Part shown: positions 21,580 to 30,747 of the stretch, piece after piece
How positions within the stretch are numbered: position 1 is the stretch's first letter
Layout of the letters: each line of letters opens with the position of its first letter
Assembly (NCBI GenBank): GCA_963662335.2
Contig: CAXXVD010000002.1
Span: forward strand, 288,001-352,000
Length of the DNA: 64,000 nt
Source of the DNA: Chloroflexota bacterium
GTDB taxonomy: Bacteria > Chloroflexota > UBA11872 > VXOZ01
Direction of reading: 5' to 3'
The notes under the pieces: generated by a model
What the model was told of the DNA's origin: nothing
What the model saw: the letters and a program-made list of their open reading frames with translations, nothing else
Database searches by the model: none
Translations under genes and position numbers: made by a program

Positions 21580-22815
21580 CTACACCGCCACCCGTTGCAA
21601 CTGCCCCACGTTCCGCCGCACCTTGGCGATGCCCTCCGCGATGTCGTCCATATCGGACTTTTCCGCCAGCAGGGTGGGGTGGCCCATGGCGATACCCTCG
21701 TAGCGGGTCAGTTTCTCCGCTTCCGGGCAGTCCAGCGCGCGGAAGACGCCCGCGCCGCCGGCAATCGCGCCGGTTTCCAGATCCAGCATCGGGTTGTCGT
21801 AGATTGGGCGCGGGTGTCCGCCGGAAACCGGCACGCCCTCCGCGTGCGCCGCGTCCAGGAACGACCGCTTATCCGTGCCGAACTCTTCCGGCAAGATGCG
21901 GAACGTATAGATGTGCATCCCGTGTTGGGTCACGTCCGGCGGGATTGGCGGCGGCGCGATGCCGTCGATTTGCGCCAGCAGGCCGGAGAGGTACTTGGCG
22001 TTGCGGTTGCGCAGTTTCGTCTGTTCGTCGAACCGTTCCAGTTGTCCCAGCAGGATTGCCGCCTGGAACTCGTTCATCGGGTAGTGGCCGCCCAGTTCGT
22101 AGTGCACGTAGCCCGGCTCATCTTTGGCGCGGCCGAAGCTGGAGAGCGTATAGAGCCAGCGTTCGGCCAGTTCCGCGTTATCGGTCGTTAACATGCCGCC
22201 CTCGCCGGTGCTCATGTTCTTGCCGCCGCCCAGGCTGAACGAACTGCCGTCGCCCATCCCGCCCAGTTTGCGGCCTTTCCATTCCGCGCCGTGGGCGTGG
22301 GCCGCGTCCGTGATCAGCGCCAGGCCGTGTTTGCGCGCGATTTCCTCGAAGCGTTCCATATCCGCCGGATAGCCGCCGTAGTGCACCGGGCTGATCGCGC
22401 GGGTGCGGGGCGTAATCGCCTCTTCCGTGCGGTCGGGATCCAGGCAGAGCGACGCCGGGTCGATGTCCGCCATCACCGGCGTCGCGCCCAGGTACATGGG
22501 CGCGAAGGCCGTGGCGATGAACGTAAACGCCGGCACGATCACCTCGTCGCCCGCGCCCACGCCAAACGCCTTCAACCCGATCTCCAGGCCCGCGGTGCAA
22601 CTGGTCAGGCCGATGCCAAAGCGGGCGTCGTGATAGGCCGCGAACCGCTCCTGCGCCGCCGTCTTCATCGGCCCGTGCGCCGTGCCGCCCCATACGCGGC
22701 TCTCGAACACCGCGCGCACGTTGTCCAGTTCGGTCTCGCCGTACTGCGGCCACTTGGGCCAGGATTTCGTCCCGTCCCGCACCGGCGTGCCGCCCAGCAG
22801 GGCCAGTCGTTCCAT
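21580..22815 (-). CDS. DegT/DnrJ/EryC1/StrS PLP-dependent aminotransferase
   Basis: GDEVIVPAFTFIAT, DAAHAHGA, FSLGGGKNMSTGEGG. Confidence 0.92.
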   Translation of the reverse strand: MERLALLGGTPVRDGTKSWPKWPQYGETELDNVRAVFESRVWGGTAHGPMKTAAQERFAAYHDARFGIGLTSCTAGLEIGLKAFGVGAGDEVIVPAFTFIATAFAPMYLGATPVMADIDPASLCLDPDRTEEAITPRTRAISPVHYGGYPADMERFEEIARKHGLALITDAAHAHGAEWKGRKLGGMGDGSSFSLGGGKNMSTGEGGMLTTDNAELAERWLYTLSSFGRAKDEPGYVHYELGGHYPMNEFQAAILLGQLERFDEQTKLRNRNAKYLSGLLAQIDGIAPPPIPPDVTQHGMHIYTFRILPEEFGTDKRSFLDAAHAEGVPVSGGHPRPIYDNPMLDLETGAIAGGAGVFRALDCPEAEKLTRYEGIAMGHPTLLAEKSDMDDIAEGIAKVRRNVGQLQRVAV

Positions 22816-23013
22816 GGTGTCCGTTTCCCTTCCTTTTAATGGGGCTTCGTCCCAGTGACCGCCGTTCCGCTGCCGCTACGCCCCGATTGTATCACCATCC
22901 ACACGCGCCTAGGGTAATCGTATGCTTATGCCGCATTTGCGGTATACTGTATGGCGAATGCGAATTAGGGAATACCGCAGTCCCGCCGCAAACCGGAGCA
23001 GGAGCCGTCCGGC

Positions 23014-23256
23014 ATGATTTCAAATGAAGAGCGCCTCGCGCGCATAGAAGGCGGATACGAACACCTGGCCACCAAGGCCGACATCGGCGACGTTAAGGCC
23101 GACATCGCCGCGCTCAACGGCAGGATAGACGCCCTCGAGGCCCGCATAGACGCCGTGGTCGCCGAGTTGCGCATCCACCGCTGGGCGTTGGGCATCTCCA
23201 TTGCCTTGCAGCTTATCATCCTGGCGCGCCTCTTCGAGATCATCCCGCCGGGGTAG
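23014..23256 (+). CDS. Small coiled-coil protein with C-terminal transmembrane helix (DUF1640-like)
   Basis: HLATKADI, heptad repeats, hydrophobic C-terminus; ggag RBS. Confidence 0.65.
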   Translation: MISNEERLARIEGGYEHLATKADIGDVKADIAALNGRIDALEARIDAVVAELRIHRWALGISIALQLIILARLFEIIPPG

Positions 23257-23342
23257 CGCGCGTACCCGCACGCGCGCTACCCCGGCGCCGTTGCCGGTCA
23301 GCCTCCGCGCGATTTTTCCCGTTTTGTTTGGACAAACCCCCC

Positions 23343-23371
23343 TTGCAACCGCTTTTGCCCTTTGCTACACT
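23343..23371 (+). promoter_or_regulatory. Upstream promoter of surface-protein unit 1
   Basis: TTGCAA-17-TACACT with TG extended -10. Confidence 0.6.
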
Positions 23372-23409
23372 AATGTCCGGACTGACAAGCGCGCAGCCGC
23401 GCCTGCCCC

Positions 23410-23438
23410 TTGCGCAGCTTGGAGCAGTCTGCTACACT
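23410..23438 (+). promoter_or_regulatory. Promoter of surface-protein unit 1
   Basis: TTGCGC-17-TACACT with TG extended -10; conserved in units 2 and 3. Confidence 0.7.
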
Positions 23439-23444
23439 ACTAAG

Positions 23445-23750
23445 CAGGCTGGCGCAGCGTGCCCACTAGCGGGGACACCCTGGGCACAGCGCAAGTCAGT
23501 CAGGCTCATCTCGTATCAACATACCGTGCTATTGGCGTCAACGGTCGGATCAGCCAATTGATCGCCCTGGTCTGCCACCTGGGGAGTGTGACGTACACCC
23601 ACGATTCCCCCTCAGCGCGGGACAGTCATCTAGAAGAAGGGAGTGTATAGCTACACGCGCCGGAATAGCCCGGTATTTTGGGTGTCTCTTTCGAATGGAT
23701 CCGAACGCCCGCTAACGGTTGAACGGGCGTACAAGTGAAAGGAAAGGACT
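23445..23750 (+). promoter_or_regulatory. ~305-nt structured 5' leader, unit 1
   Basis: Highly similar to 25530-25836 with compensatory changes; contains hairpins and an internal agaagggag. Confidence 0.6.
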
Positions 23751-25301
23751 GTGAGACAATTGTCTCGTTTGGTGAGCGTGTTCCTCGCGCTCATTTTGAT
23801 GGGCGCCTCGCTGATGGTCGTGGCCGCGGATGATAAAGTTACTACGGGCGCGAATGCTGAAACTCAGGGCTTGGATCATGGCGCCAAGGTCGTCATCTCC
23901 CGCGTTGACACCACGAGCCCCGTGTATCCCGACACTAAGCTGAAGTTCCGGGTACTCATCGTGCGCAGCGGTCATGATATCCCGGGTGTGGCTGCAACGA
24001 CCCTGAAGCGCACTGGCTTGACTGGCGGCGAAGACAAGTCATATCTCATCGGCACGGATTTCTCCGAGGTCGATGATACCCGCACGACGGATAACACCGC
24101 GGACAAGACGAAAGACCTCTTTTCGGCGCGGCCGACGTTCTCCAAGGAGATCGAGTACGTGGTGCTTGGTACCGACTTGGGCGACAACGCAGCCAGCCGC
24201 ACGGTGAACATCCAGTTCACCCTCGCGTTTACCGTGGGTAGTGATGTGCACGTGGTCGAGAGCAATACGGTGCCGGTGCTGGTAGTGAAGAAGCCTAGCG
24301 AGGGCGATGGGTCGTCCGGCGTGACGATGACGTTTGCCGGCGCCGATCCTGAGGAGCGTGTCGCGGGCAAGAAGATCAAGTTCACGTTGACGGCGAGGAC
24401 CGGCAAGTACGGTCTGGGTGCTACCCAGTTGGTGGAGATCATGCGGCAGCGCTACAGCGATGCCGACACGAAGGACGGCGACCCGGTAATCGTCGACTTC
24501 CTCACCATTCCGACGCTGGGAACCAAGGCGGAAAGCGATGAGCAGTCGGTCGAGTACGTCTTGCGGCAAGAGGACATCGACGCGCACAAGGTCGAGTTCT
24601 CGGTCAAGGTCGAGATTGAGCTCGACGACATCCGCAAAGCTGACGGCACTGCCGTTCTTAAGACTGACATTCATGGGTGGACGAAAGACACGCTGGAGGG
24701 CAGTCACGTCTTCATGAGCATGCCTCCGGTGGCGGCGACGCCGAACCCGTATATCTACGAGAATGCCGCGGCGACGGTGACGGAGCTGGCGGGCGGCACG
24801 GCCGTGGAGATTATGCGGAAGGACACAGGGGCGACGATCACGTTGACGGTAGGCACGCTGAGCAGCGCTGGCGCGCTGTTGCCGCGGGACAGCGGGTACA
24901 TTCGCGACGAGAGTCGCGGGCAGACCTACGCGGTGGTGCGGCGGGCGTCGGACAACACGGTCCGGCGTGTGTGGATATCCTCGAACAGCGAGTGGGTGCC
25001 GCACGTGCCGTGGGATAACGTGATAGCGTTCTACAACGTGCCGGCGTCAGTCTTGAACGCGATACCGTTGGACGACACGATGCCTGAAGTCGACCAACTG
25101 GTAGACGCGGCAGGCACGTGGTACGTGTACCGTGATAGAGCGTGGCGGCATATACCCAATCTGTCCACGTTCCGGGCGGAAGGGTTCTACTGGTGCGACT
25201 TGACGACGGCGGACGCCAACCACGCGGCCGCATCGTCGACCGCGACGCCGCTGCCGTCCAAGGTCGGGCCTCCGGCTGCGGGCTACCCGGCGTGCAGGTA
25301 G
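23751..25301 (+). CDS. Secreted/surface protein, paralog 1 (Ig-like domains plus conserved Cys-containing C-terminal domain)
   Basis: Sec signal peptide, aaggaaagga RBS, YVLRQEDIDA motif, C-terminal GYIRDE..QTYAVVR..EGFYWCD..YPAC. Confidence 0.85.
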   Translation: MRQLSRLVSVFLALILMGASLMVVAADDKVTTGANAETQGLDHGAKVVISRVDTTSPVYPDTKLKFRVLIVRSGHDIPGVAATTLKRTGLTGGEDKSYLIGTDFSEVDDTRTTDNTADKTKDLFSARPTFSKEIEYVVLGTDLGDNAASRTVNIQFTLAFTVGSDVHVVESNTVPVLVVKKPSEGDGSSGVTMTFAGADPEERVAGKKIKFTLTARTGKYGLGATQLVEIMRQRYSDADTKDGDPVIVDFLTIPTLGTKAESDEQSVEYVLRQEDIDAHKVEFSVKVEIELDDIRKADGTAVLKTDIHGWTKDTLEGSHVFMSMPPVAATPNPYIYENAAATVTELAGGTAVEIMRKDTGATITLTVGTLSSAGALLPRDSGYIRDESRGQTYAVVRRASDNTVRRVWISSNSEWVPHVPWDNVIAFYNVPASVLNAIPLDDTMPEVDQLVDAAGTWYVYRDRAWRHIPNLSTFRAEGFYWCDLTTADANHAAASSTATPLPSKVGPPAAGYPACR

Positions 25302-25429
25302 GCAGGACGCATTGAAGCTGTATGGGCACAACACAAACCCTAGAGGTATCAGTGACCGGGAGAGCGAGAGCGTGATGACCGCACGCTAGCGTGCCCGGGG
25401 GGTCTGTACAGTCTCCTTATGCTACGGCG

Positions 25430-25470
25430 AGAGCCGGTGTCTGTGGCAGGACACCGGCTCTTGTTATTGT
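25430..25470 (+). terminator. Intrinsic terminator, unit 1
   Basis: agagccggtgtc / gacaccggctct stem followed by tgttattgt. Confidence 0.7.
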
Positions 25471-25494
25471 CTGTAGAACGGAGCGGCGCGCCCC

Positions 25495-25523
25495 TTGCAT
25501 AGCTTGGGGCAGTCTGCTACACT
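25495..25523 (+). promoter_or_regulatory. Promoter of unit 2
   Basis: TTGCAT-17-TACACT with TG extended -10. Confidence 0.7.
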
Positions 25524-25529
25524 ACTAAG

Positions 25530-25836
25530 CAGGCTGGCGCGGCGCGCGCCCACTAGCTGGGACACCATGGGCGCGGCGGCAGCCGGTCGAGTTCAATTCG
25601 TATCCACATACCGTGCTATTGGCGTCAACGGTCGGATCAGCCAATTGATCGCCCTGGTCTGCCACCTGGGGAGTGTGACGTACACCCACGATTCCCCCAC
25701 AGCGCGGGACAGTCATCTGAAGAAGGGAGTGTATAGCTACACGCGCCGGAATAGCCCGGTATTTTGGGTGTCTCTTTCGAGTGTTTGCGAACGCCCGCTA
25801 ACGGTTGAACGGGCGTACAAGTGAAAGGAAAGGACT
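25530..25836 (+). promoter_or_regulatory. Structured 5' leader, unit 2
   Basis: Paralog of 23445-23750. Confidence 0.6.
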
Positions 25837-27408
25837 GTGAGACAATTGTCTCGTTTGGTGAGCGTCTTCCTGGCGCTCATTTTGATGGGTGCCTCGCTGA
25901 TGGTCGTGGCCGCGGATGATAAAGTTACTACGGGCGCGAATGCTGAAACTCAGGGCTTGGATCATGGCGCCAAGGTTGTCATCTCTCGCGTTGACACCGA
26001 AAGCCCCGTGTATCCCGGTACTGAACTGAAGTTCCGGGTACTCATTGTGAGAAGCGGCCACGATGTTAGGGGTACCGCCGCTGCTACCTACTTGGAGCGC
26101 ACTGGTGTAACTGCCGGCACTAAGTATATCGATGGCGACGATTTCACCGAGCACAACGATGGCCGCACGACCGCTGAGGCAGATAAGACGAAAGACCTCA
26201 CCGAAAAGGCGCCGACGTTCTCCACGGAGTTCAAGTACAAGGTGAGCGACGGCGACTTGGGCGATAACGCGGCCAACCGTACGGTGGACATCCAGTTTAC
26301 TCTCACGTTTCTCGCAACCGCGATGGATGCAGATGGAAATAGAACTAACGCGGAAACGCATGCGGTCACGAGCAATACGGTGCCGGTGCTGGTAGAGAAG
26401 AAGCCTAACGAGGGCGCGGGGTCGTCCGGTGTGACGATGACGTTTGCCGGCGCCGATCCTGACGAGCTTGCCGCGGGCAAGAAGATCAAGTTCACGTTGA
26501 CGGCGAGGACCGGCAAGTACGGTCTGGGTGCTACGAAGTTGGTGGAGATCATGCGGCAGCGCTACAGCGATGCCGACACGAAGGACGGCGACCCGGTTAC
26601 CGTCAACTTCCTCACCATTCCGACGCTGGAAACCGATTCGGTAAGCAATGAGGAGTCGGTCGAGTACGTCTTGCGGCAGGAGGACATCGACGCGCACAAG
26701 GTCGAGTTCTCGGTCAAGGTCGAGATTGAGCTCGACGACATCCGCAAAGCTGACGGCACTGCCGTTCTTAAGACTGACATTCATGGGTGGACGAAAGACA
26801 CGCTGGAGGGCAGTCACGTCTTCATGAGCATGCCTCCGGTGGCGGCGACGCCGAGCCCGTATCTCTACGAGACTGACGCGGCGACGGTGATGGAGCTGGC
26901 GGGCGGCGGGGCCATCGAGCTTACCCGGAAGGACACCGGGTCGACGATTACCCTGACGCTGGGCACGCTGAGCAGCGCCGGCGCGTTGTTGCCGCGGGAC
27001 AGCGGCTACATTCGCGACGAGAGCCGCGGGCAGACCTACGCGGTGGTGCGGACGTCGGACAACACGGTACGGCGTGTGTGGATTTCCTCGAGCAGCGAGT
27101 GGGTGCCGCACGTGCCGTGGGCGAACGTGATTGCGTTCTACAACGTGCCGGCAGCGGTCTTGAACGCGATACCGTTGGACGACACGATGCCTGAAGTCGA
27201 CCAACTGGTTGCGGTGGACGGCGTGTGGTACGTGTACCGTGATCGAGCGTGGCGGCACATACCGAACCTGTCCACGTTCCGTGCGGAAGGGTTCTACTGG
27301 TGCGACTTGACGACTGCGGACAGCAGCCACGCAGCGGCATCGTCGACCGCGACGCCGCTTCCGTCCAGGGTAGGGCCTCCGGCTGAGGGCTACCCGGCGT
27401 GCAGGTAG
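25837..27408 (+). CDS. Secreted/surface protein, paralog 2
   Basis: Long blocks identical to paralog 1; first domain divergent. Confidence 0.85.
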   Translation: MRQLSRLVSVFLALILMGASLMVVAADDKVTTGANAETQGLDHGAKVVISRVDTESPVYPGTELKFRVLIVRSGHDVRGTAAATYLERTGVTAGTKYIDGDDFTEHNDGRTTAEADKTKDLTEKAPTFSTEFKYKVSDGDLGDNAANRTVDIQFTLTFLATAMDADGNRTNAETHAVTSNTVPVLVEKKPNEGAGSSGVTMTFAGADPDELAAGKKIKFTLTARTGKYGLGATKLVEIMRQRYSDADTKDGDPVTVNFLTIPTLETDSVSNEESVEYVLRQEDIDAHKVEFSVKVEIELDDIRKADGTAVLKTDIHGWTKDTLEGSHVFMSMPPVAATPSPYLYETDAATVMELAGGGAIELTRKDTGSTITLTLGTLSSAGALLPRDSGYIRDESRGQTYAVVRTSDNTVRRVWISSSSEWVPHVPWANVIAFYNVPAAVLNAIPLDDTMPEVDQLVAVDGVWYVYRDRAWRHIPNLSTFRAEGFYWCDLTTADSSHAAASSTATPLPSRVGPPAEGYPACR

Positions 27409-27537
27409 GGAAGGACGCATTGAAGCTGTATGGGCGCATCACAGACCATAGAGGTATCAGTGACCGGGAGAGCGAGAGCGTGATGACCGCACGCTAGCGT
27501 GCCCGGGGGGTCTGTACAGTCTCCTTATGCTACGGCG

Positions 27538-27578
27538 AGAGCCGGTGTCTGTGGCAGGACACCGGCTCTTGTTATTGT
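27538..27578 (+). terminator. Intrinsic terminator, unit 2
   Basis: Identical to the unit 1 terminator. Confidence 0.7.
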
Positions 27579-27602
27579 CTTTGGAACGGCGGGGCGCGCC
27601 CC

Positions 27603-27631
27603 TTGCAGCGCGGGTAGCGCTCTGCTACACT
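27603..27631 (+). promoter_or_regulatory. Promoter of unit 3
   Basis: TTGCAG-17-TACACT with TG extended -10. Confidence 0.65.
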
Positions 27632-27939
27632 TTTAACGAAGACCGACCAGCGTACACCCCACTGCTGAGCGGCGCGGATAGCGCGGGGGCGCCATGAAGG
27701 CCAACGAGACGTGTTCTGCATTGGCGTGCCGCGCTCCTGGCGCCACCGGCCAGGTCGGTAGCGATTTCCCCTAAGCCGCCCGAGACTGCGACGCATACTG
27801 ATGATTCCGCCTCAGCGCGGGATAGCCTCCAAGAAGGGAGCGCGTCTGCCCACCGAAACCGCCCGGAATTGTGTCTCTCTTTCCAGCTTTTGCCAGCCGC
27901 TTCACGGAAGCGGACGGTCTAGTGAAAGGATAAGGAACT

Positions 27940-29511
27940 GTGGCCCCCCTGTCTCGTTTGTTGAGCGTCTTCCTGGCGCTTATTTTGATGGGTCTATCAC
28001 TGGCGACCGCGTCGGCAGGGGATAATCACCCCGCGAAGAGCACGTACGGCGCTACGGTATCGCTTTCCCGTATCGACTCCACAGCCGCGGACAAGATACA
28101 CGTGGGGACGGCATTGCAGTTCCGCGTCTTCGTCAGACGGGGCGACCATGATATTCGTGCCGGTACCACGGTGTTCGGCGTGACGCGCGGCAGCTCTCTC
28201 ACCGCGGTCATCCCTGGTGACCCTAATGACCCTAATGACGGTGTGACGGCGAGCAATAGCCTCGTCTCCATGACGATCGACTACGTCGTTGCGGAAGGTG
28301 ATCTGGGCAATGCGGCGCGGCGCCTCGTTCCCTTCCAGGTACAGATGAGCTTTACGCCTGATCCTAGTAAATATACCGGGACTCATCCTGAAGCCACGGT
28401 CATGAGCAACATAATTGGCGTTTTCGTAACGAAGAGACCGGGCTCGGGCGATACCTCTTCGGGCGTAACCTTGGCGTTTGGTATCACTGAGCCGGATACG
28501 ATTGCCGTGGGGAAACAGGTCGGGTTCAGGCTGCGGGTGTCCACAAGCAAGTACGGGCTGCTTGGGAACAGTTTGATAATCCAGAAGCAGCTCTATGACG
28601 CTAACGGCGCCAAGAAGGGCGCGGCGAAGACCGTCACGCTGTTCGGCATTCCGCATCTTCTGAAAGGGGCAGTGAGCGAGGAGCAATCGCAGTCCTACAC
28701 GCTGCAAAAGGAAGACGTGGATGCCGGCGCCGGCCGGGTCGAGTTCTTCTATAGGTGGGTAGTCGAAGATTCGCACCTGCTGGACGCCAATGGGTCGCCT
28801 ACGGATGATCTCCGTGACGACTTCAGCCAGGTCTTCACGCGCAGTCATTTTCTGGGCGGAGCGCCGCCAACGCCGACACCGACACCTGCGGCCAGGGCTA
28901 CGGCGACACCGACGCCTGTGACGACAGTAGTCGGGAGGACGAGCGCGGCGACGGTTACGATTCGAGGGGCTCACCACGTCCACGTGGACCGGCGTGACGG
29001 GGGTCGGGACTTCGTCCTGGCGCTCGGTTATCTTGCGCCCAACGGCGCTCGCGGCTTCAATCCGCGCGGCTACATCCGCGACGGTGAGTCCCAGGGCCGA
29101 GGCGGCCAGACCTACGCCGTGGTGCGGCGCGAGGCGGACCAAGAGATCGTGCGCATCTGGATATCCCCCGAAAGCCCCGAGCGGGGCGAGGTGCCGTGGG
29201 ATACCGTGAAACTGCCGCCCTACACGGTGCCGGTGGGCGTCTTGAGCGCCATCAAGCTGGATGAGACGCGTCCGGTGGAGAACCAATTGGCGCGCCGCTT
29301 CGACGAGCGCAGCGATGGACGCATCTTCGTGTTCCGGAACAACGCCTGGCATTGGATCCCCGATATTCCCACGTTCGAGGCAGAGGGCTTCTATTGGTGC
29401 GACGTGACCGCGGCGGACGTCGACTTCTTCAGCCGCGCCAATATCGGAACTCCTTTGCCAAGCAGCGGCACCGCGAAAGACCCGAACTATCCGAATTGCC
29501 ACTCCAAGTAA
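27940..29511 (+). CDS. Secreted/surface protein, paralog 3 (divergent; Pro/Thr linker)
   Basis: LSRLLSVFLALILMG signal peptide, YTLQKEDVDAG, PTPTPTP linker, GYIRD..QTYAVVRR..EGFYWCD..YPNC. Confidence 0.85.
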   Translation: MAPLSRLLSVFLALILMGLSLATASAGDNHPAKSTYGATVSLSRIDSTAADKIHVGTALQFRVFVRRGDHDIRAGTTVFGVTRGSSLTAVIPGDPNDPNDGVTASNSLVSMTIDYVVAEGDLGNAARRLVPFQVQMSFTPDPSKYTGTHPEATVMSNIIGVFVTKRPGSGDTSSGVTLAFGITEPDTIAVGKQVGFRLRVSTSKYGLLGNSLIIQKQLYDANGAKKGAAKTVTLFGIPHLLKGAVSEEQSQSYTLQKEDVDAGAGRVEFFYRWVVEDSHLLDANGSPTDDLRDDFSQVFTRSHFLGGAPPTPTPTPAARATATPTPVTTVVGRTSAATVTIRGAHHVHVDRRDGGRDFVLALGYLAPNGARGFNPRGYIRDGESQGRGGQTYAVVRREADQEIVRIWISPESPERGEVPWDTVKLPPYTVPVGVLSAIKLDETRPVENQLARRFDERSDGRIFVFRNNAWHWIPDIPTFEAEGFYWCDVTAADVDFFSRANIGTPLPSSGTAKDPNYPNCHSK

Positions 29512-29580
29512 ACGGGGCGTTCGGGCTCGTGCTGGTGCGACGGCGCACACGGCGCCGCTAGTCCGGTAAGATGCTGAACG

Positions 29581-29616
29581 CAGAGCCGGTGTCCGCGCGC
29601 GAGGACACCGGCTCTG
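29581..29616 (+). terminator. Terminator-like hairpin, unit 3
   Basis: cagagccggtgtcc / ggacaccggctctg, same stem as units 1 and 2. Confidence 0.6.
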
Positions 29617-29739
29617 GCATTGTCCCCCCTCACCCCGGCCCGCTCCCTGGGAGAGGGGGCAAGAAGAGCTGATTGGCTCCGGTTCCCTCTCCCGGCGGGA
29701 AGGTTAGGGAAAGGGGGCGGAATGCGATAGGGAGGCGCA

Positions 29740-30747
29740 GTGACACCACGCTTCTATGACGTAGCCCGCCTGCGGGCGTGGCGCGCGCGCATTGCCGCGC
29801 TGGACGCGGCCGCGGCGCCGGCGGCGGACGTGATTGCGCCGCCGGGCGCGGCTGCGGCCGGGGCCGCGGCGGTGGTGGCCGGGTCGTTCAATCCGCCGAC
29901 CGCCGCGCACCTGAGCCTCTGCGACGGCGCGCTGCGCCAGCCGGGGATCGAGACGGTGTGGCTGGTGCTGGCGGTGCGCACCGTTGATAAGGAAGCGGTG
30001 ACCGGCGCCTGCCTGGAAGACCGCCTGCTGCTGCTATCGATGCTGGCGGCGGCGCGGCCCAACGTGGGCGTGGCCCTCTGCAACCGGGGCCTCTACGTGG
30101 AACAGGCCGCGGCGCTGCGCGTGCAGATCGTGCCGCCGGCACGGGAACTGGTGTTCGTGGTGGGCTACGATAAGATCGAACAGATCTTCGACGGGCGCTA
30201 CTATACGGCGCGGGAGGCTAGCCTGGCACGGCTCTTTGGGCTGGCGCGGTTTCTGGTGGCCGCGCGCGATGGGCACGGCCGCCACGCCCTGGCCGCCCTG
30301 CTGGCTCAAAGCGAGAATCGGCTCTATCAACACCGCGTGGCCGCGCTGACGACCCTGCCCGCAGATCACGACCCAACCCTCTCCTCAACCCAGGTGCGCG
30401 CGGCCTACGCCCAGGACGCGGCGCGGGAAACAACGGACGGGCAGGGCGCGACTGCGGCGGCCGCGAGTTGGGGCGCGCCGGATGTGGTGTGGGCGTTTGC
30501 GCGGGAGACCGGGGTCTACGCGCCGCCGCTGGCGCTGCCCGGCGGCGAGACGGTGGACCGCTACGGAATGCGGCTGCGGCTGCTGGAGGCGCTGGCGGCG
30601 GAACCGGCAAGCGACTTTGCGGCGGCTGAATTCGCGGCGGCGGTGCGGCTGGCAACGGCGGACTCAGCGGCCGGCCGCGCGCTGCGCCGCCTGCTGGCGG
30701 GGAATGCGGTAACGCTAGCGGCGATTCGCGCGCGGGTGCAGGCGTGA
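29740..30747 (+). CDS. Nucleotidylyltransferase (NMN/NaMN adenylyltransferase-like)
   Basis: GSFNPPTAAH, VGYDK..IFD.RYY, LSSTQVR. Confidence 0.75.
   Translation: MTPRFYDVARLRAWRARIAALDAAAAPAADVIAPPGAAAAGAAAVVAGSFNPPTAAHLSLCDGALRQPGIETVWLVLAVRTVDKEAVTGACLEDRLLLLSMLAAARPNVGVALCNRGLYVEQAAALRVQIVPPARELVFVVGYDKIEQIFDGRYYTAREASLARLFGLARFLVAARDGHGRHALAALLAQSENRLYQHRVAALTTLPADHDPTLSSTQVRAAYAQDAARETTDGQGATAAAASWGAPDVVWAFARETGVYAPPLALPGGETVDRYGMRLRLLEALAAEPASDFAAAEFAAAVRLATADSAAGRALRRLLAGNAVTLAAIRARVQA

What the first reader, a model, noticed from the sequence alone, without database searches (positions are those of the whole stretch)
23445..23750. Structured ~300-nt 5' leader with compensatory base changes: candidate new cis-regulatory RNA
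Seen: between leaders 1 and 2 the stem gtgccca/tgggcac becomes gcgccca/tgggcgc, and ggg-gaca-ccc becomes tgg-gaca-cca (two compensatory pairs). The diverged leader 3 (27638-27939) keeps gattcc..ctcagcgcggga, aagaagggag, cccgg and tctctttc...gtgaaagga (able to pair over the RBS region), and swaps the hairpin acgcccg/cgggcgt for ccgcttc/gaagcgg at the same place. I do not recognise a known riboswitch here.
Basis: partly seen in the sequence, partly recalled or inferred. Interest (0 to 1): 0.75.

Follow-up and report, generated by a model that had tools for sequence, protein, structure and literature searches.

The report
Conserved long leader of surface-protein genes
A roughly 300-base non-coding leader sits in front of each of three tandem genes for secreted surface-type proteins in a Chloroflexota bacterium; it is real and new as a sequence family, but looks like a gene-specific messenger-stabilising leader, not a riboswitch.

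Summary
Three tandem paralogous genes (23751-25301, 25837-27408, 27940-29511) each have a promoter-like site, a leader of about 300 nt and, after genes 1 and 2, a scanned terminator. The two compensatory pairs between leaders 1 and 2, the blocks kept in leader 3 and the swapped hairpin are all present.

I found 27 copies of the leader, in 10 of 17 genomes of one Chloroflexota genus. They always precede genes of this one secreted-protein family. A covariance model found none in 81 genomes of 19 other genera of the class. No Rfam family matches.

Covariation supports only the 5'-terminal stem-loop: 5 compensatory pairs against 1.9 in shuffles. The 190-nt conserved core shows none above shuffles. 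A hairpin before the ribosome site changes sequence and is missing in 6 of 26 copies. The core holds a nearly invariant Shine-Dalgarno-like AGAAGGGAG with no conserved start codon after it. RNase J is present and CsrA was not found.

Best reading: a family-specific 5' UTR that stabilises the mRNA and sets translation, as in S-layer genes. A factor-binding regulatory leader remains possible. A metabolite riboswitch is unlikely. The transcription start is inferred, with only weak support from RNA-library contigs.

The parts
23343..23371 (+). Distal promoter-like site of gene 1 (TTGCAA-N17-TACACT)
   Evidence: Pattern match, (-408). Tandem promoter-like sites about 200 nt apart also occur in 6 homologous loci. 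The strict motif occurs only 7 times in the 3.2-Mb genome. Function is inferred.
23410..23438 (+). Proximal promoter-like site of gene 1 (TTGCGC-N17-TACACT, TG before the -10 box)
   Evidence: -341. Similarity between leader 1 and leaders 2 and 3 begins at this site. The motif sits 311-383 nt before the start in 17 of 29 family genes, and in 22 of 29 counting five further copies (L014 at -531 with its insertion; four of the copies fetched). The start site is inferred, not measured.
23447..23501 (+). 5'-terminal extended stem-loop of leader 1: outer helix GGCUGGC/GUCAGUC, inner helix GUGCCCA/UGGGCAC, tip GGG-GACA-CCC
   Evidence: MFE -30.4 kcal/mol, z = -2.76. Consensus of 13 pairs in 16 type-A copies, 5 with compensatory change. 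Controls.
23510..23700 (+). Conserved core of leader 1, with blocks ACCGTGCT, TTGGCG, GATTCCCCC..GCGCGGGA and GCCCGG
   Evidence: 96.3% identical to leader 2 and 61.8% to leader 3. The covariance model of part of the core (23520-23646) scores 96-147 bits on the 26 aligned copies. No covariation above shuffles.
23634..23643 (+). Shine-Dalgarno-like block AAGAAGGGAG, 108-117 nt before the start codon
   Evidence: Identical in 23 of 26 copies, and GGAG is kept in all. AGAAGGGAG can pair over 9 positions (one G-U) with the 16S 3' end ...CACCTCCTTTCT. No conserved start codon or frame follows. Mean unpaired probability 0.51 against 0.37 for the whole leader.
23705..23730 (+). GC-rich hairpin before the ribosome site (ACGCCCG / CGGGCGT)
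   Evidence: A hairpin of changing sequence stands here in 20 of 26 copies and is absent in 6. No U-run follows, so it is not a terminator.
23737..23743 (+). Shine-Dalgarno sequence GAAAGGA of gene 1
   Evidence: 7-nt match to the 16S 3' end. The surrounding TAGTGAAAGGAAAGGACTGTG is nearly invariant.
23751..25301 (+). Gene 1 (516 aa): signal peptide, beta-sandwich domains, conserved C-terminal domain
   Evidence: No credible Pfam match for any of the three paralogs (one below-cut-off CusF_Ec hit on gene 2) and no NCBIfam match for the two scanned (genes 1 and 3). The fold is inferred from the model of gene 3.
23753..23766 (+). Hairpin GAGAC-N4-GTCTC starting at the last base of the GTG start codon
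   Evidence: Stems are kept in 24-26 of 26 copies while the loop varies. The rare codons TCT (3% of Ser codons) and CGT (14% of Arg codons) are held at codons 5 and 6.
25426..25465 (+). Intrinsic terminator after gene 1
   Evidence: 17-pair stem followed by a T-run.
25495..25523 (+). Promoter-like site of gene 2 (TTGCAT-N17-TACACT)
25530..25836 (+). Leader 2
25837..27408 (+). Gene 2 (523 aa), 84% identical in protein to gene 1
27534..27573 (+). Intrinsic terminator after gene 2
27603..27631 (+). Promoter-like site of gene 3 (TTGCAG-N17-TACACT)
27638..27939 (+). Leader 3, the diverged type-B-like copy
   Evidence: 103.6 bits with the covariance model.
27940..29511 (+). Gene 3 (523 aa), 42% identical in protein to gene 1
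   Evidence: AlphaFold model with mean pLDDT 86.7.

Best explanation
The stretch is the transcribed 5' untranslated leader of an mRNA for a secreted surface-type protein built of tandem beta-sandwich domains. The leader is about 300 nt in the window and 280-350 nt in relatives.

The same leader precedes every member of this gene family that has it. It travels as one unit: promoter, leader, ribosome site, and the first ten codons of the signal peptide.

Proposed mechanism:
1. Transcription starts about 7 nt after a conserved TGnTACACT box (inferred).
2. The RNA begins with a long stem-loop only 5-6 nt from its 5' end (structure shown by covariation). This would hinder 5'-end-dependent decay (inferred).
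3. The conserved core carries AGAAGGGAG, a strong Shine-Dalgarno-like site with no start codon. It could hold a 30S subunit and block 5'-to-3' digestion by RNase J, as STAB-SD does in the Bacillus thuringiensis cry3A mRNA (inferred by analogy).
4. An invariant ribosome site, with nucleotide-level constraint on codons 2-10, fixes the rate of initiation (constraint shown, effect inferred).

The net effect would be a long-lived, heavily translated mRNA, as described for S-layer genes with long 5' UTRs and tandem promoters.
For: Conservation
- The promoter-like site lies 311-383 nt before the start in 17 of 29 family genes; 22 of 29 carry the motif when five further copies are counted (L014 at -531 with its insertion; four).
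- Similarity between paralogous loci begins at that site.
- The leader core is better conserved than the coding region: 96.3 against 86.0% for genes 1 and 2, and 61.8 against 55.2% for genes 1 and 3. Shuffles give 45.8%.
- It is non-coding.

Structure
- The 5' stem-loop has compensatory changes above both controls and z-scores down to -4.4.

SD-like block and nucleases
- The block is complementary to this genome's own 16S 3' end and identical in 23 of 26 copies.
- RNase J is present at 599.8 bits against a cut-off of 400.

Transcription units
- Scanned terminators follow genes 1 and 2, so each gene needs its own promoter.
- Tandem promoter-like sites occur at gene 1 and in 6 homologous loci.

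Distribution
- Only this family, and only the 10 genomes that have a full-length homolog, carry the leader: 10 of 10 with it against 0 of 7 without.

RNA libraries
- Contigs of a close relative in two metatranscriptomes of one study cover 23560-23813. One 540-nt contig runs from 143 nt before the start codon into the gene.

Literature
- Passages of PMC3666127 say that Lactobacillus S-layer mRNAs have half-lives of 14-15 min, owed to a long structured 5' UTR, and have two promoters.
- Passages of PMC4113751 describe STAB-SD and RNase J1.
Against: - No transcription start, RNA half-life or protein abundance was measured. The start is inferred from a motif.
- The simple consensus scan found no canonical sigma-70 site in 23200-29800.
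- The RNA evidence is contigs only, from a relative and from one study. RNA libraries can hold DNA.
- A stabiliser does not need 190 nt of conserved primary sequence. That much conservation hints at a specific binding partner.
- STAB-SD acts near the 5' end of a processed transcript. Here the block lies about 190 nt from the inferred start, and no processing site is known.
- The SD-like block could instead pair with the conserved CCCU upstream.
- The protein is not shown to be an S-layer or abundant protein. It has no SLH domain or any other credible Pfam match, and its fold matches are only generic beta-sandwiches.
- The type-B 5' domains have weak z-scores, 0.4 to -1.9.
Confidence: 0.45

Rival explanations
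1. The leader is a regulatory RNA bound by a specific trans-acting factor: an RNA-binding protein, a small RNA, or the encoded protein or its secretion state acting as feedback. The factor would recognise the conserved core blocks and switch translation or stability of the whole paralog family together.
For: The core is conserved as primary sequence without covariation, which is what sequence-specific recognition predicts. The same leader serves 27 genes of one family, which would then form a co-regulated set. Nucleotide-level constraint runs into codons 2-10, and an invariant GAGAC-N4-GTCTC hairpin abuts the start codon, a natural site for a repressor. In type-B copies two UUCUGCU arms compete for one GAAGCAGA arm.
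Against: No candidate factor was found. CsrA was not found in the 96%-complete genome. The long-range pairing that RNAalifold proposed between the leader and codons 6-10 is not compensated in the two copies whose coding side changed: 4-5 of 11 pairs break. The pre-ribosome-site hairpin is dispensable in 6 of 26 copies. No regulator gene stands beside the locus among the ORFs scanned.
Confidence: 0.28
2. The leader is a new small-molecule or second-messenger riboswitch, with the conserved core as aptamer and the region before the ribosome site as expression platform.
For: The leader is long and its sequence blocks are highly conserved, separated by variable stretches. No known family matches, so it would be new. 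A small hairpin followed by a U-rich run (23659-23683) was flagged as terminator-like.
Against: No covariation supports an aptamer fold in the core. The leader is confined to one gene family in 10 of 17 genomes of one genus, and absent from 81 genomes of 19 other genera of the class and from the rest of its own genome. Known riboswitch classes are usually spread over many genes and taxa (recalled). The flagged hairpins have only 5-6 pairs, against 17 in the real terminators here. Pairing over the Shine-Dalgarno site is not conserved. The downstream genes are structural surface proteins with no link to a metabolite.
Confidence: 0.07
3. The conservation acts on DNA, or is neutral. Either the stretch holds operator sites and a promoter close to the gene, or it looks conserved only because duplication and gene conversion copied the flanks recently.
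For: Genes 1 and 2 share 96% identity in the leader core and also in the 150 nt after the stop codon, more than in the coding region at 86%. That points to gene conversion of the flanks or to fast change of the protein. GAGAC-N4-GTCTC and ATTCCGC..GCGGAAT are palindromes that a DNA-binding dimer could use.
Against: The blocks persist between paralogs and orthologs whose proteins are only 35-45% identical, far beyond recent conversion. The 150 nt after the stop are at shuffle level between genes 1 and 3 (50.9%), while the leader core is not (61.8%). Changes in the hairpins are of the RNA kind, U-A to U-G and C-G to U-G, and the 5' stem-loop shows compensatory changes. RNA-library contigs reach 191 nt before the start codon.
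Confidence: 0.08

Closest known systems
Long 5' UTRs of S-layer protein genes (Lactobacillus acidophilus and L. crispatus slpA)
   Same: A long leader with a stabilising secondary structure, tandem promoters, and a monocistronic gene for a secreted surface protein (passages of PMC3666127; here).
   Different: There is no sequence relation. The leader here is longer and has a 190-nt core conserved as sequence. The protein is not shown to form an S-layer and has no SLH or other known anchor domain. The phylum is different (Chloroflexota).
STAB-SD of the Bacillus thuringiensis cry3A mRNA
   Same: A Shine-Dalgarno-like sequence inside a 5' UTR, about 110-130 nt before the start codon. It is complementary to the 16S 3' end, does not start translation, and occurs in an organism with RNase J (passages of PMC4113751).
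   Different: In cry3A the element lies at the 5' end of the processed stable transcript. Here it lies about 190 nt from the inferred start, behind a 5' stem-loop, and no processing or stabilisation has been measured.
5'-terminal stabilising hairpins (E. coli ompA leader, B. subtilis aprE leader); recalled, not read here
   Same: A stem-loop within a few nucleotides of the 5' end of an mRNA for an abundant exported protein.
   Different: Those leaders are much shorter and lack a long conserved core. The comparison rests on recall.
Riboswitches and other cis-regulatory leaders in Rfam
   Same: A conserved, structured, non-coding leader before a coding region.
   Different: No Rfam family matches at E <= 10. 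The core shows no covariation, there is no expression platform, and the distribution is one gene family in one genus.

Membership tests
Any Rfam 15 family | Match to a curated covariance model | tested here: not met
   cmscan of 22500-30500 at E <= 10 gave 5 matches, all microRNA models at 18-22 bits on GC-rich palindromes outside the leaders.
Riboswitch (general) | Aptamer helices supported by covariation | tested here: not met
   Core: 42 candidate pairs on 26 sequences give 2 compensatory pairs against 1.9 +/- 1.0 in shuffles (308 of 500 reach it) and a score of 0.136 against 0.138. A scan of all column pairs found only 4-5-pair runs.
Riboswitch (general) | Expression platform: terminator or pairing over the Shine-Dalgarno site that alternates with the aptamer | tested here: not met
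   Only 5-6-pair hairpins are flagged inside the leader, against 17-pair real terminators. TCTCTTTC is not conserved in type-A copies. The hairpin before the ribosome site is absent in 6 of 26.
Riboswitch (general) | Occurs before several functionally linked genes and across taxa | tested here: not met
   Own genome: only the 3 copies. In 98 genomes of the class, hits fall only in 10 genomes of one genus, all before one protein family.
STAB-SD-type stabiliser | SD-like sequence in the 5' UTR complementary to the 16S 3' end | tested here: met
   AGAAGGGAG against the genome's own ...CACCTCCTTTCT gives 9 pairs with one G-U. The block is identical in 23 of 26 copies.
STAB-SD-type stabiliser | Does not direct translation (no start codon or frame behind it) | tested here: met
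   No start codon at a conserved distance, no frame shared among the five leaders scanned, and variable columns 38/37/29 by phase. Some type-A copies (for example G001a) do have an ATG 3 nt behind it.
STAB-SD-type stabiliser | 5'-to-3' exonuclease RNase J present | tested here: met
   TIGR00649 match at 599.8 bits against a cut-off of 400, on contig 3.
STAB-SD-type stabiliser | Lies at the 5' end of the stable transcript and lengthens its half-life | not testable with these tools
   Needs 5'-end mapping and decay assays. The runs available are contigs only.
5'-terminal stabilising stem-loop | Conserved hairpin close to the 5' end | tested here: met
   Type A: 13 pairs, 97.1% paired, 5 compensatory. 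The stem starts 5-6 nt after the inferred start. The start itself is inferred. The type-B domain folds but has weak z-scores.
S-layer protein gene | Secreted, self-assembling, very abundant protein with a cell-wall anchor such as SLH | tested here: inconclusive
   A signal peptide and beta-sandwich domains are present. No SLH or any other credible Pfam or NCBIfam match. The C-terminal domain of about 200 aa has unknown function. Abundance and assembly were not tested.

The most novel reading that the evidence does not exclude
The leader is a lineage-specific sensing RNA: a protein-, RNA- or ligand-binding switch that travels as a cassette with the signal-peptide start. The cassette has been placed before both long and short members of a fast-evolving surface-protein family, so one signal would govern which surface coat the cell displays.
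Probability: 0.2. Interest if true: 0.65.

Novelty: new member of a known kind. Interest (0 to 1): 0.4.

Why it matters
Post-transcriptional control in Chloroflexota is, to my recollection, little explored, and this leader is in no RNA family library. It offers a well-delimited unit for study: promoter, 5' stem-loop, SD-like block and ribosome site. That unit could test whether the 5'-end protection and STAB-SD-type mechanisms known from Firmicutes also act in this phylum. It could also serve as an expression cassette for high-GC Chloroflexota. Finally, it marks a so far unnamed family of secreted proteins, with a shared C-terminal domain, as probable major surface components.

Tried and rejected
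Structure ideas rejected
- RNAalifold on 18 leaders proposed a long-range helix between the leader (TCGTATCAACATAC) and codons 6-10 (CGTTTGTTGAGCG). I rejected it. In the two copies where the coding side reads CGTGTGCCGGGT the leader does not compensate, and 4-5 of 11 pairs break. The five one-sided changes are transitions opposite G or U, which are cheap.
- A pairing of leader TCTGC with the 3' arm of the pre-ribosome-site hairpin did not reappear among the top-ranked helices of the 26-sequence scan, which listed 25 of 79.

Other readings rejected
- An upstream reading frame: no shared frame and no 3-base periodicity.
- CsrA binding at the GGA motifs: no CsrA gene was found.

Searches that gave nothing useful
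- Pfam, NCBIfam and ESM Atlas gave no name for the protein.
- Foldseek against the PDB gave only generic beta-sandwich matches such as RbmA, arrestin-like proteins and transglutaminase C-domains.
- The genome-contig scan returned one locus, identical over the 561 nt read (leader and gene start) to a copy already held.
- Two literature searches gave nothing on this system: Thermus slpA leader, and Chloroflexi surface proteins. The S-layer review PMC4232325 has no passage on UTRs.

RNA runs
- In X1 and X2 no contig at 85% likeness or more lay on 23127-23559. This says nothing, because the 5' stem-loop varies between relatives.
- Two RNA contigs end at 27534, where the terminator stem begins. They come from one study, so this is not counted as evidence.

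Tools unavailable

Full report
WHAT IS THERE

The window carries three tandem paralogous genes on the + strand: 23751-25301 (516 aa), 25837-27408 (523 aa) and 27940-29511 (523 aa). Genes 1 and 2 are 84% identical in protein; gene 3 is 42% identical to gene 1. Each starts with GTG and a signal peptide.

Genes 1 and 2 are each followed by a 17-pair intrinsic terminator, at 25426-25465 and 27534-27573. Before each gene lies about 300 nt without a conserved reading frame. That stretch is preceded by a promoter-like site, TTGCA-N17-(TG)nTACACT, at 23410-23438, 25495-23523 being 25495-25523 for gene 2, and 27603-27631. Gene 1 has a second such site at 23343-23371.

THE OBSERVATION

- GTGCCCA/TGGGCAC in leader 1 against GCGCCCA/TGGGCGC in leader 2.
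- GGG-GACA-CCC against TGG-GACA-CCA.
- The blocks GATTCC..CTCAGCGCGGGA, AAGAAGGGAG, CCCGG, TCTCTTTC and GTGAAAGGA kept in leader 3.
- The hairpin ACGCCCG/CGGGCGT replaced by CCGCTTC/GAAGCGG at the same place.

Identity by segment:

| Segment | Genes 1 v 2 | Genes 1 v 3 |
|---|---|---|
| 5' stem-loop | 76.1% | 50.6% |
| Leader core | 96.3% | 61.8% |
| Coding region | 86.0% | 55.2% |
| 150 nt after the stop | 96.1% | 50.9% |

Shuffles of the core give 45.8 +/- 1.9% for genes 1 v 3. So the leader core is conserved beyond the coding region, and well beyond chance.

RELATIVES

The genome (3.23 Mb, 64.5% G+C) belongs to Chloroflexota. The only named record found is a Chloroflexota MAG contig, identical over the stretch read to a copy already held.

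Full-length homologs of the protein occur in 10 of 17 genomes of the genus, and in none of the 44 genomes of other genera searched with this query.

BLAST with the two leader types and a covariance model of the core find the leader in exactly those 10 genomes. There are 26 alignable copies, plus one interrupted by about 190 nt of tandem repeats. The model found nothing in 81 genomes of 19 other genera of the class. nhmmer found nothing elsewhere in the own genome.

Every copy precedes a gene that begins with the same ribosome site and signal peptide, TAGTGAAAGGAAAGGACT GTG AGA CCn nTG TCT CGT TTG TTG AGC GT. These genes are of two kinds:
- 500-555-aa family members;
- short 218-287-aa proteins that, by where they match the query and by their length, appear to consist of little more than the signal peptide and the shared C-terminal domain.

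Two family genes, both in G011, have the ribosome site and signal peptide but no recognisable leader.

The promoter-like motif stands 311-383 nt before the start in 17 of 29 genes; 22 of 29 carry it when five further copies are counted (L014 at -531 with its insertion; four of the eight fetched later). Similarity between loci starts there.

STRUCTURE

The leaders fall into two types, A and B.

5' stem-loop. In the 16 type-A copies the RNA would begin with an extended stem-loop: an outer helix GCUGAC/GUCAGC and an inner helix of 7-12 pairs whose sequence changes.
- RNAalifold gives 13 consensus pairs, 5 with compensatory change.
- 97.1% of cells pair.
- 5 pairs change on both sides, against 1.9 +/- 0.9 in shuffles (3 of 500 reach it).
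- Slid controls pair at 24-39%, with 0-2 such pairs.
- Folding z-scores are -0.7 to -4.4.
- Type-B copies have a different, longer 5' domain with weak z-scores, 0.4 to -1.9.

Core. For the 190-nt core I drew eight candidate helices (42 pairs) from RNAalifold and by eye. They pair in 90.8% of cells, but covariation is at shuffle level: 2 pairs against 1.9, and a score of 0.136 against 0.138. A scan of all column pairs found no longer covarying helix. One local helix, CGUGCU/AGCA-AUG, has two independent compensatory changes, U-A to C-G in leader 3 and U-A to A-U in G008c/G009c. That is suggestive only.

Rejected helix. The long-range helix between the leader and codons 6-10 proposed by RNAalifold fails in the two copies whose coding side changed.

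Pre-ribosome-site hairpin. A GC-rich hairpin with many different sequences stands just before the ribosome site in 20 of 26 copies and is missing in 6. No U-run follows it.

Overall. The leader has no conserved frame and matches no Rfam family at E <= 10.

OTHER CONSERVED SIGNALS

- AAGAAGGGAG is identical in 23 of 26 copies. It lies 108-117 nt before the start in leader 1. AGAAGGGAG can pair over nine positions with the genome's own 16S 3' end ...CACCTCCTTTCT. The real Shine-Dalgarno GAAAGGA pairs over seven.
- No start codon follows the block at a conserved distance. Its predicted unpaired probability is 0.51, against 0.37 for the whole leader.
- Codons 5 and 6 keep TCT and CGT. Those codons make up 3% of Ser and 14% of Arg codons in the rest of these genes.
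- A GAGAC-N4-GTCTC hairpin with a variable loop abuts the start codon. So selection acts on the RNA, or the DNA, beyond the protein.
- RNase J is present. CsrA was not found (genome 96% complete).

TRANSCRIPTION

No run with raw reads was available. Two small metatranscriptomes from one study hold contigs of a close relative that lie on 23560-23680, 23608-23691 and 23662-23813. One 540-nt contig runs from 23608, 143 nt before the start codon, into the gene.

This speaks, weakly, against a start close to the GTG. The evidence is contigs only, from one study, and RNA libraries may hold DNA. The start at the TACACT box stays inferred.

THE PROTEIN

- No credible Pfam match, no NCBIfam match and no Atlas match.
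- 218 of 1.84 billion representative proteins match at E <= 0.001. Most match only through a C-terminal domain of about 200 aa that lies at or within about 15 residues of the C-terminus in nearly all of the 150 listed hits (a few cut or odd records aside), which are 88-1649 aa long. Three open frames of 2660-2954 aa in this genome also carry it.
- The AlphaFold model (mean pLDDT 86.7) shows beta-sandwich domains, a low-confidence linker at 314-325, and the C-terminal domain.
- Foldseek finds only generic tandem beta-sandwich proteins, such as the Vibrio biofilm matrix protein RbmA.
- A surface or matrix role is likely. An S-layer role is not shown.

INTERPRETATION

Features that fit the pattern described for S-layer genes, where a long structured 5' UTR gives mRNA half-lives of 14-15 min and two promoters are common (passages of PMC3666127):
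- a strong, conserved promoter, in places in tandem;
- a 5'-terminal stem-loop;
- a Shine-Dalgarno-like block without a start codon, in an organism with RNase J;
- an invariant ribosome site;
- monocistronic genes for secreted proteins.

They also fit the STAB-SD mechanism of cry3A (passages of PMC4113751). I therefore read the leader as a family-specific mRNA-stabilising and translation-setting 5' UTR (0.45).

The extent of primary-sequence conservation in the core is more than such a role needs. That keeps a factor-binding regulatory leader alive (0.28). A metabolite riboswitch is unlikely (0.07), given no covariation in the core, no expression platform, and a distribution limited to one gene family in part of one genus. 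A DNA-level or neutral explanation is unlikely (0.08), because the changes are of the RNA kind and the blocks persist between paralogs of 35-45% protein identity.

NOVELTY

The sequence family is new, in that it is not in Rfam. My two literature searches on surface-protein leaders found nothing on it. The kind of element, a long structured leader of a surface-protein gene, is known.

LIMITS

Nothing was measured on RNA ends, decay or protein level. All copies come from one genus and are related, so counts of copies overstate independent support.

Noticed in passing
window 28860-29511 (C-terminal third of gene 3); likewise genes 1 and 2; G000 contig 3 at 285026-285655, 294791-295390 and 305370-305999: A C-terminal domain of about 200 aa with no Pfam match (nearly invariant T, R, W, two C, motif GQTYAVV...FYWCD). 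It ends proteins of 88-1649 aa in the representative library and three open frames of 2660-2954 aa in this genome. Only 218 hits in 1.84 billion representatives. It is probably a lineage-specific cell-surface anchoring or sorting domain.
   Followed up: partly
window 23751-27562: Between genes 1 and 2 the non-coding flanks are more alike than the coding region: leader core 96.3% and 150 nt after the stop 96.1%, against 86.0%. This points to diversifying change of the surface protein or to gene conversion of the flanks.
   Followed up: partly
L014 (G011 contig 1, about 1390730-1390945): One leader copy is interrupted by about 190 nt of tandem repeats built on GCAGGTTACAAACCTGCGCT. The covariance model still scores its flanks at 43 bits.
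   Followed up: no
G003 contig 1 at 422436-422546; G006 contig 1 at 2652673-2652791: Weak partial second copies of the leader core (33 and 23 bits) lie about 200 nt upstream of full copies. They sit where several loci have a second promoter-like site, so the tandem promoters may come from tandem duplication of a promoter-leader unit.
   Followed up: no
window 29617-29723; also L042 upstream region: A GC-rich palindromic element (CCCCTCACCCCGGCCC..CTCCCTGGGAGAGGGGG) gave spurious microRNA hits in Rfam. A near copy lies upstream of a family gene in G011. It is probably a dispersed repeat of the genus.
   Followed up: no
window 23014-23256 (+) and the palindrome at 23246-23287: A small 80-aa coiled-coil ORF with weak DUF7310 and DUF2730 hits stands just upstream of the distal promoter-like site of gene 1. 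Its 23041-23110 part matches many different contigs in all four runs laid, so it is a repeated motif. A perfect GC-rich palindrome follows, likely a two-way terminator.
   Followed up: no
L039 (G001a leader), from 3 nt after AAGAAGGGAG to the main start: In this copy, and by the aligned sequence probably in close type-A copies, an ATG 3 nt after the SD-like block opens a 26-codon frame. Its TGA stop overlaps the main GTG start (GTGA), an arrangement seen in translational coupling. It is absent from the window's leaders and from type B.
   Followed up: partly
window 21580-22815 (-) and 29740-30747 (+): The three genes are flanked by a DegT/DnrJ/EryC1-type sugar aminotransferase and a cytidylyltransferase-like gene. 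GFO/IDH/MocA oxidoreductases lie further upstream. This may be sugar-modification machinery that could glycosylate surface proteins.
   Followed up: no
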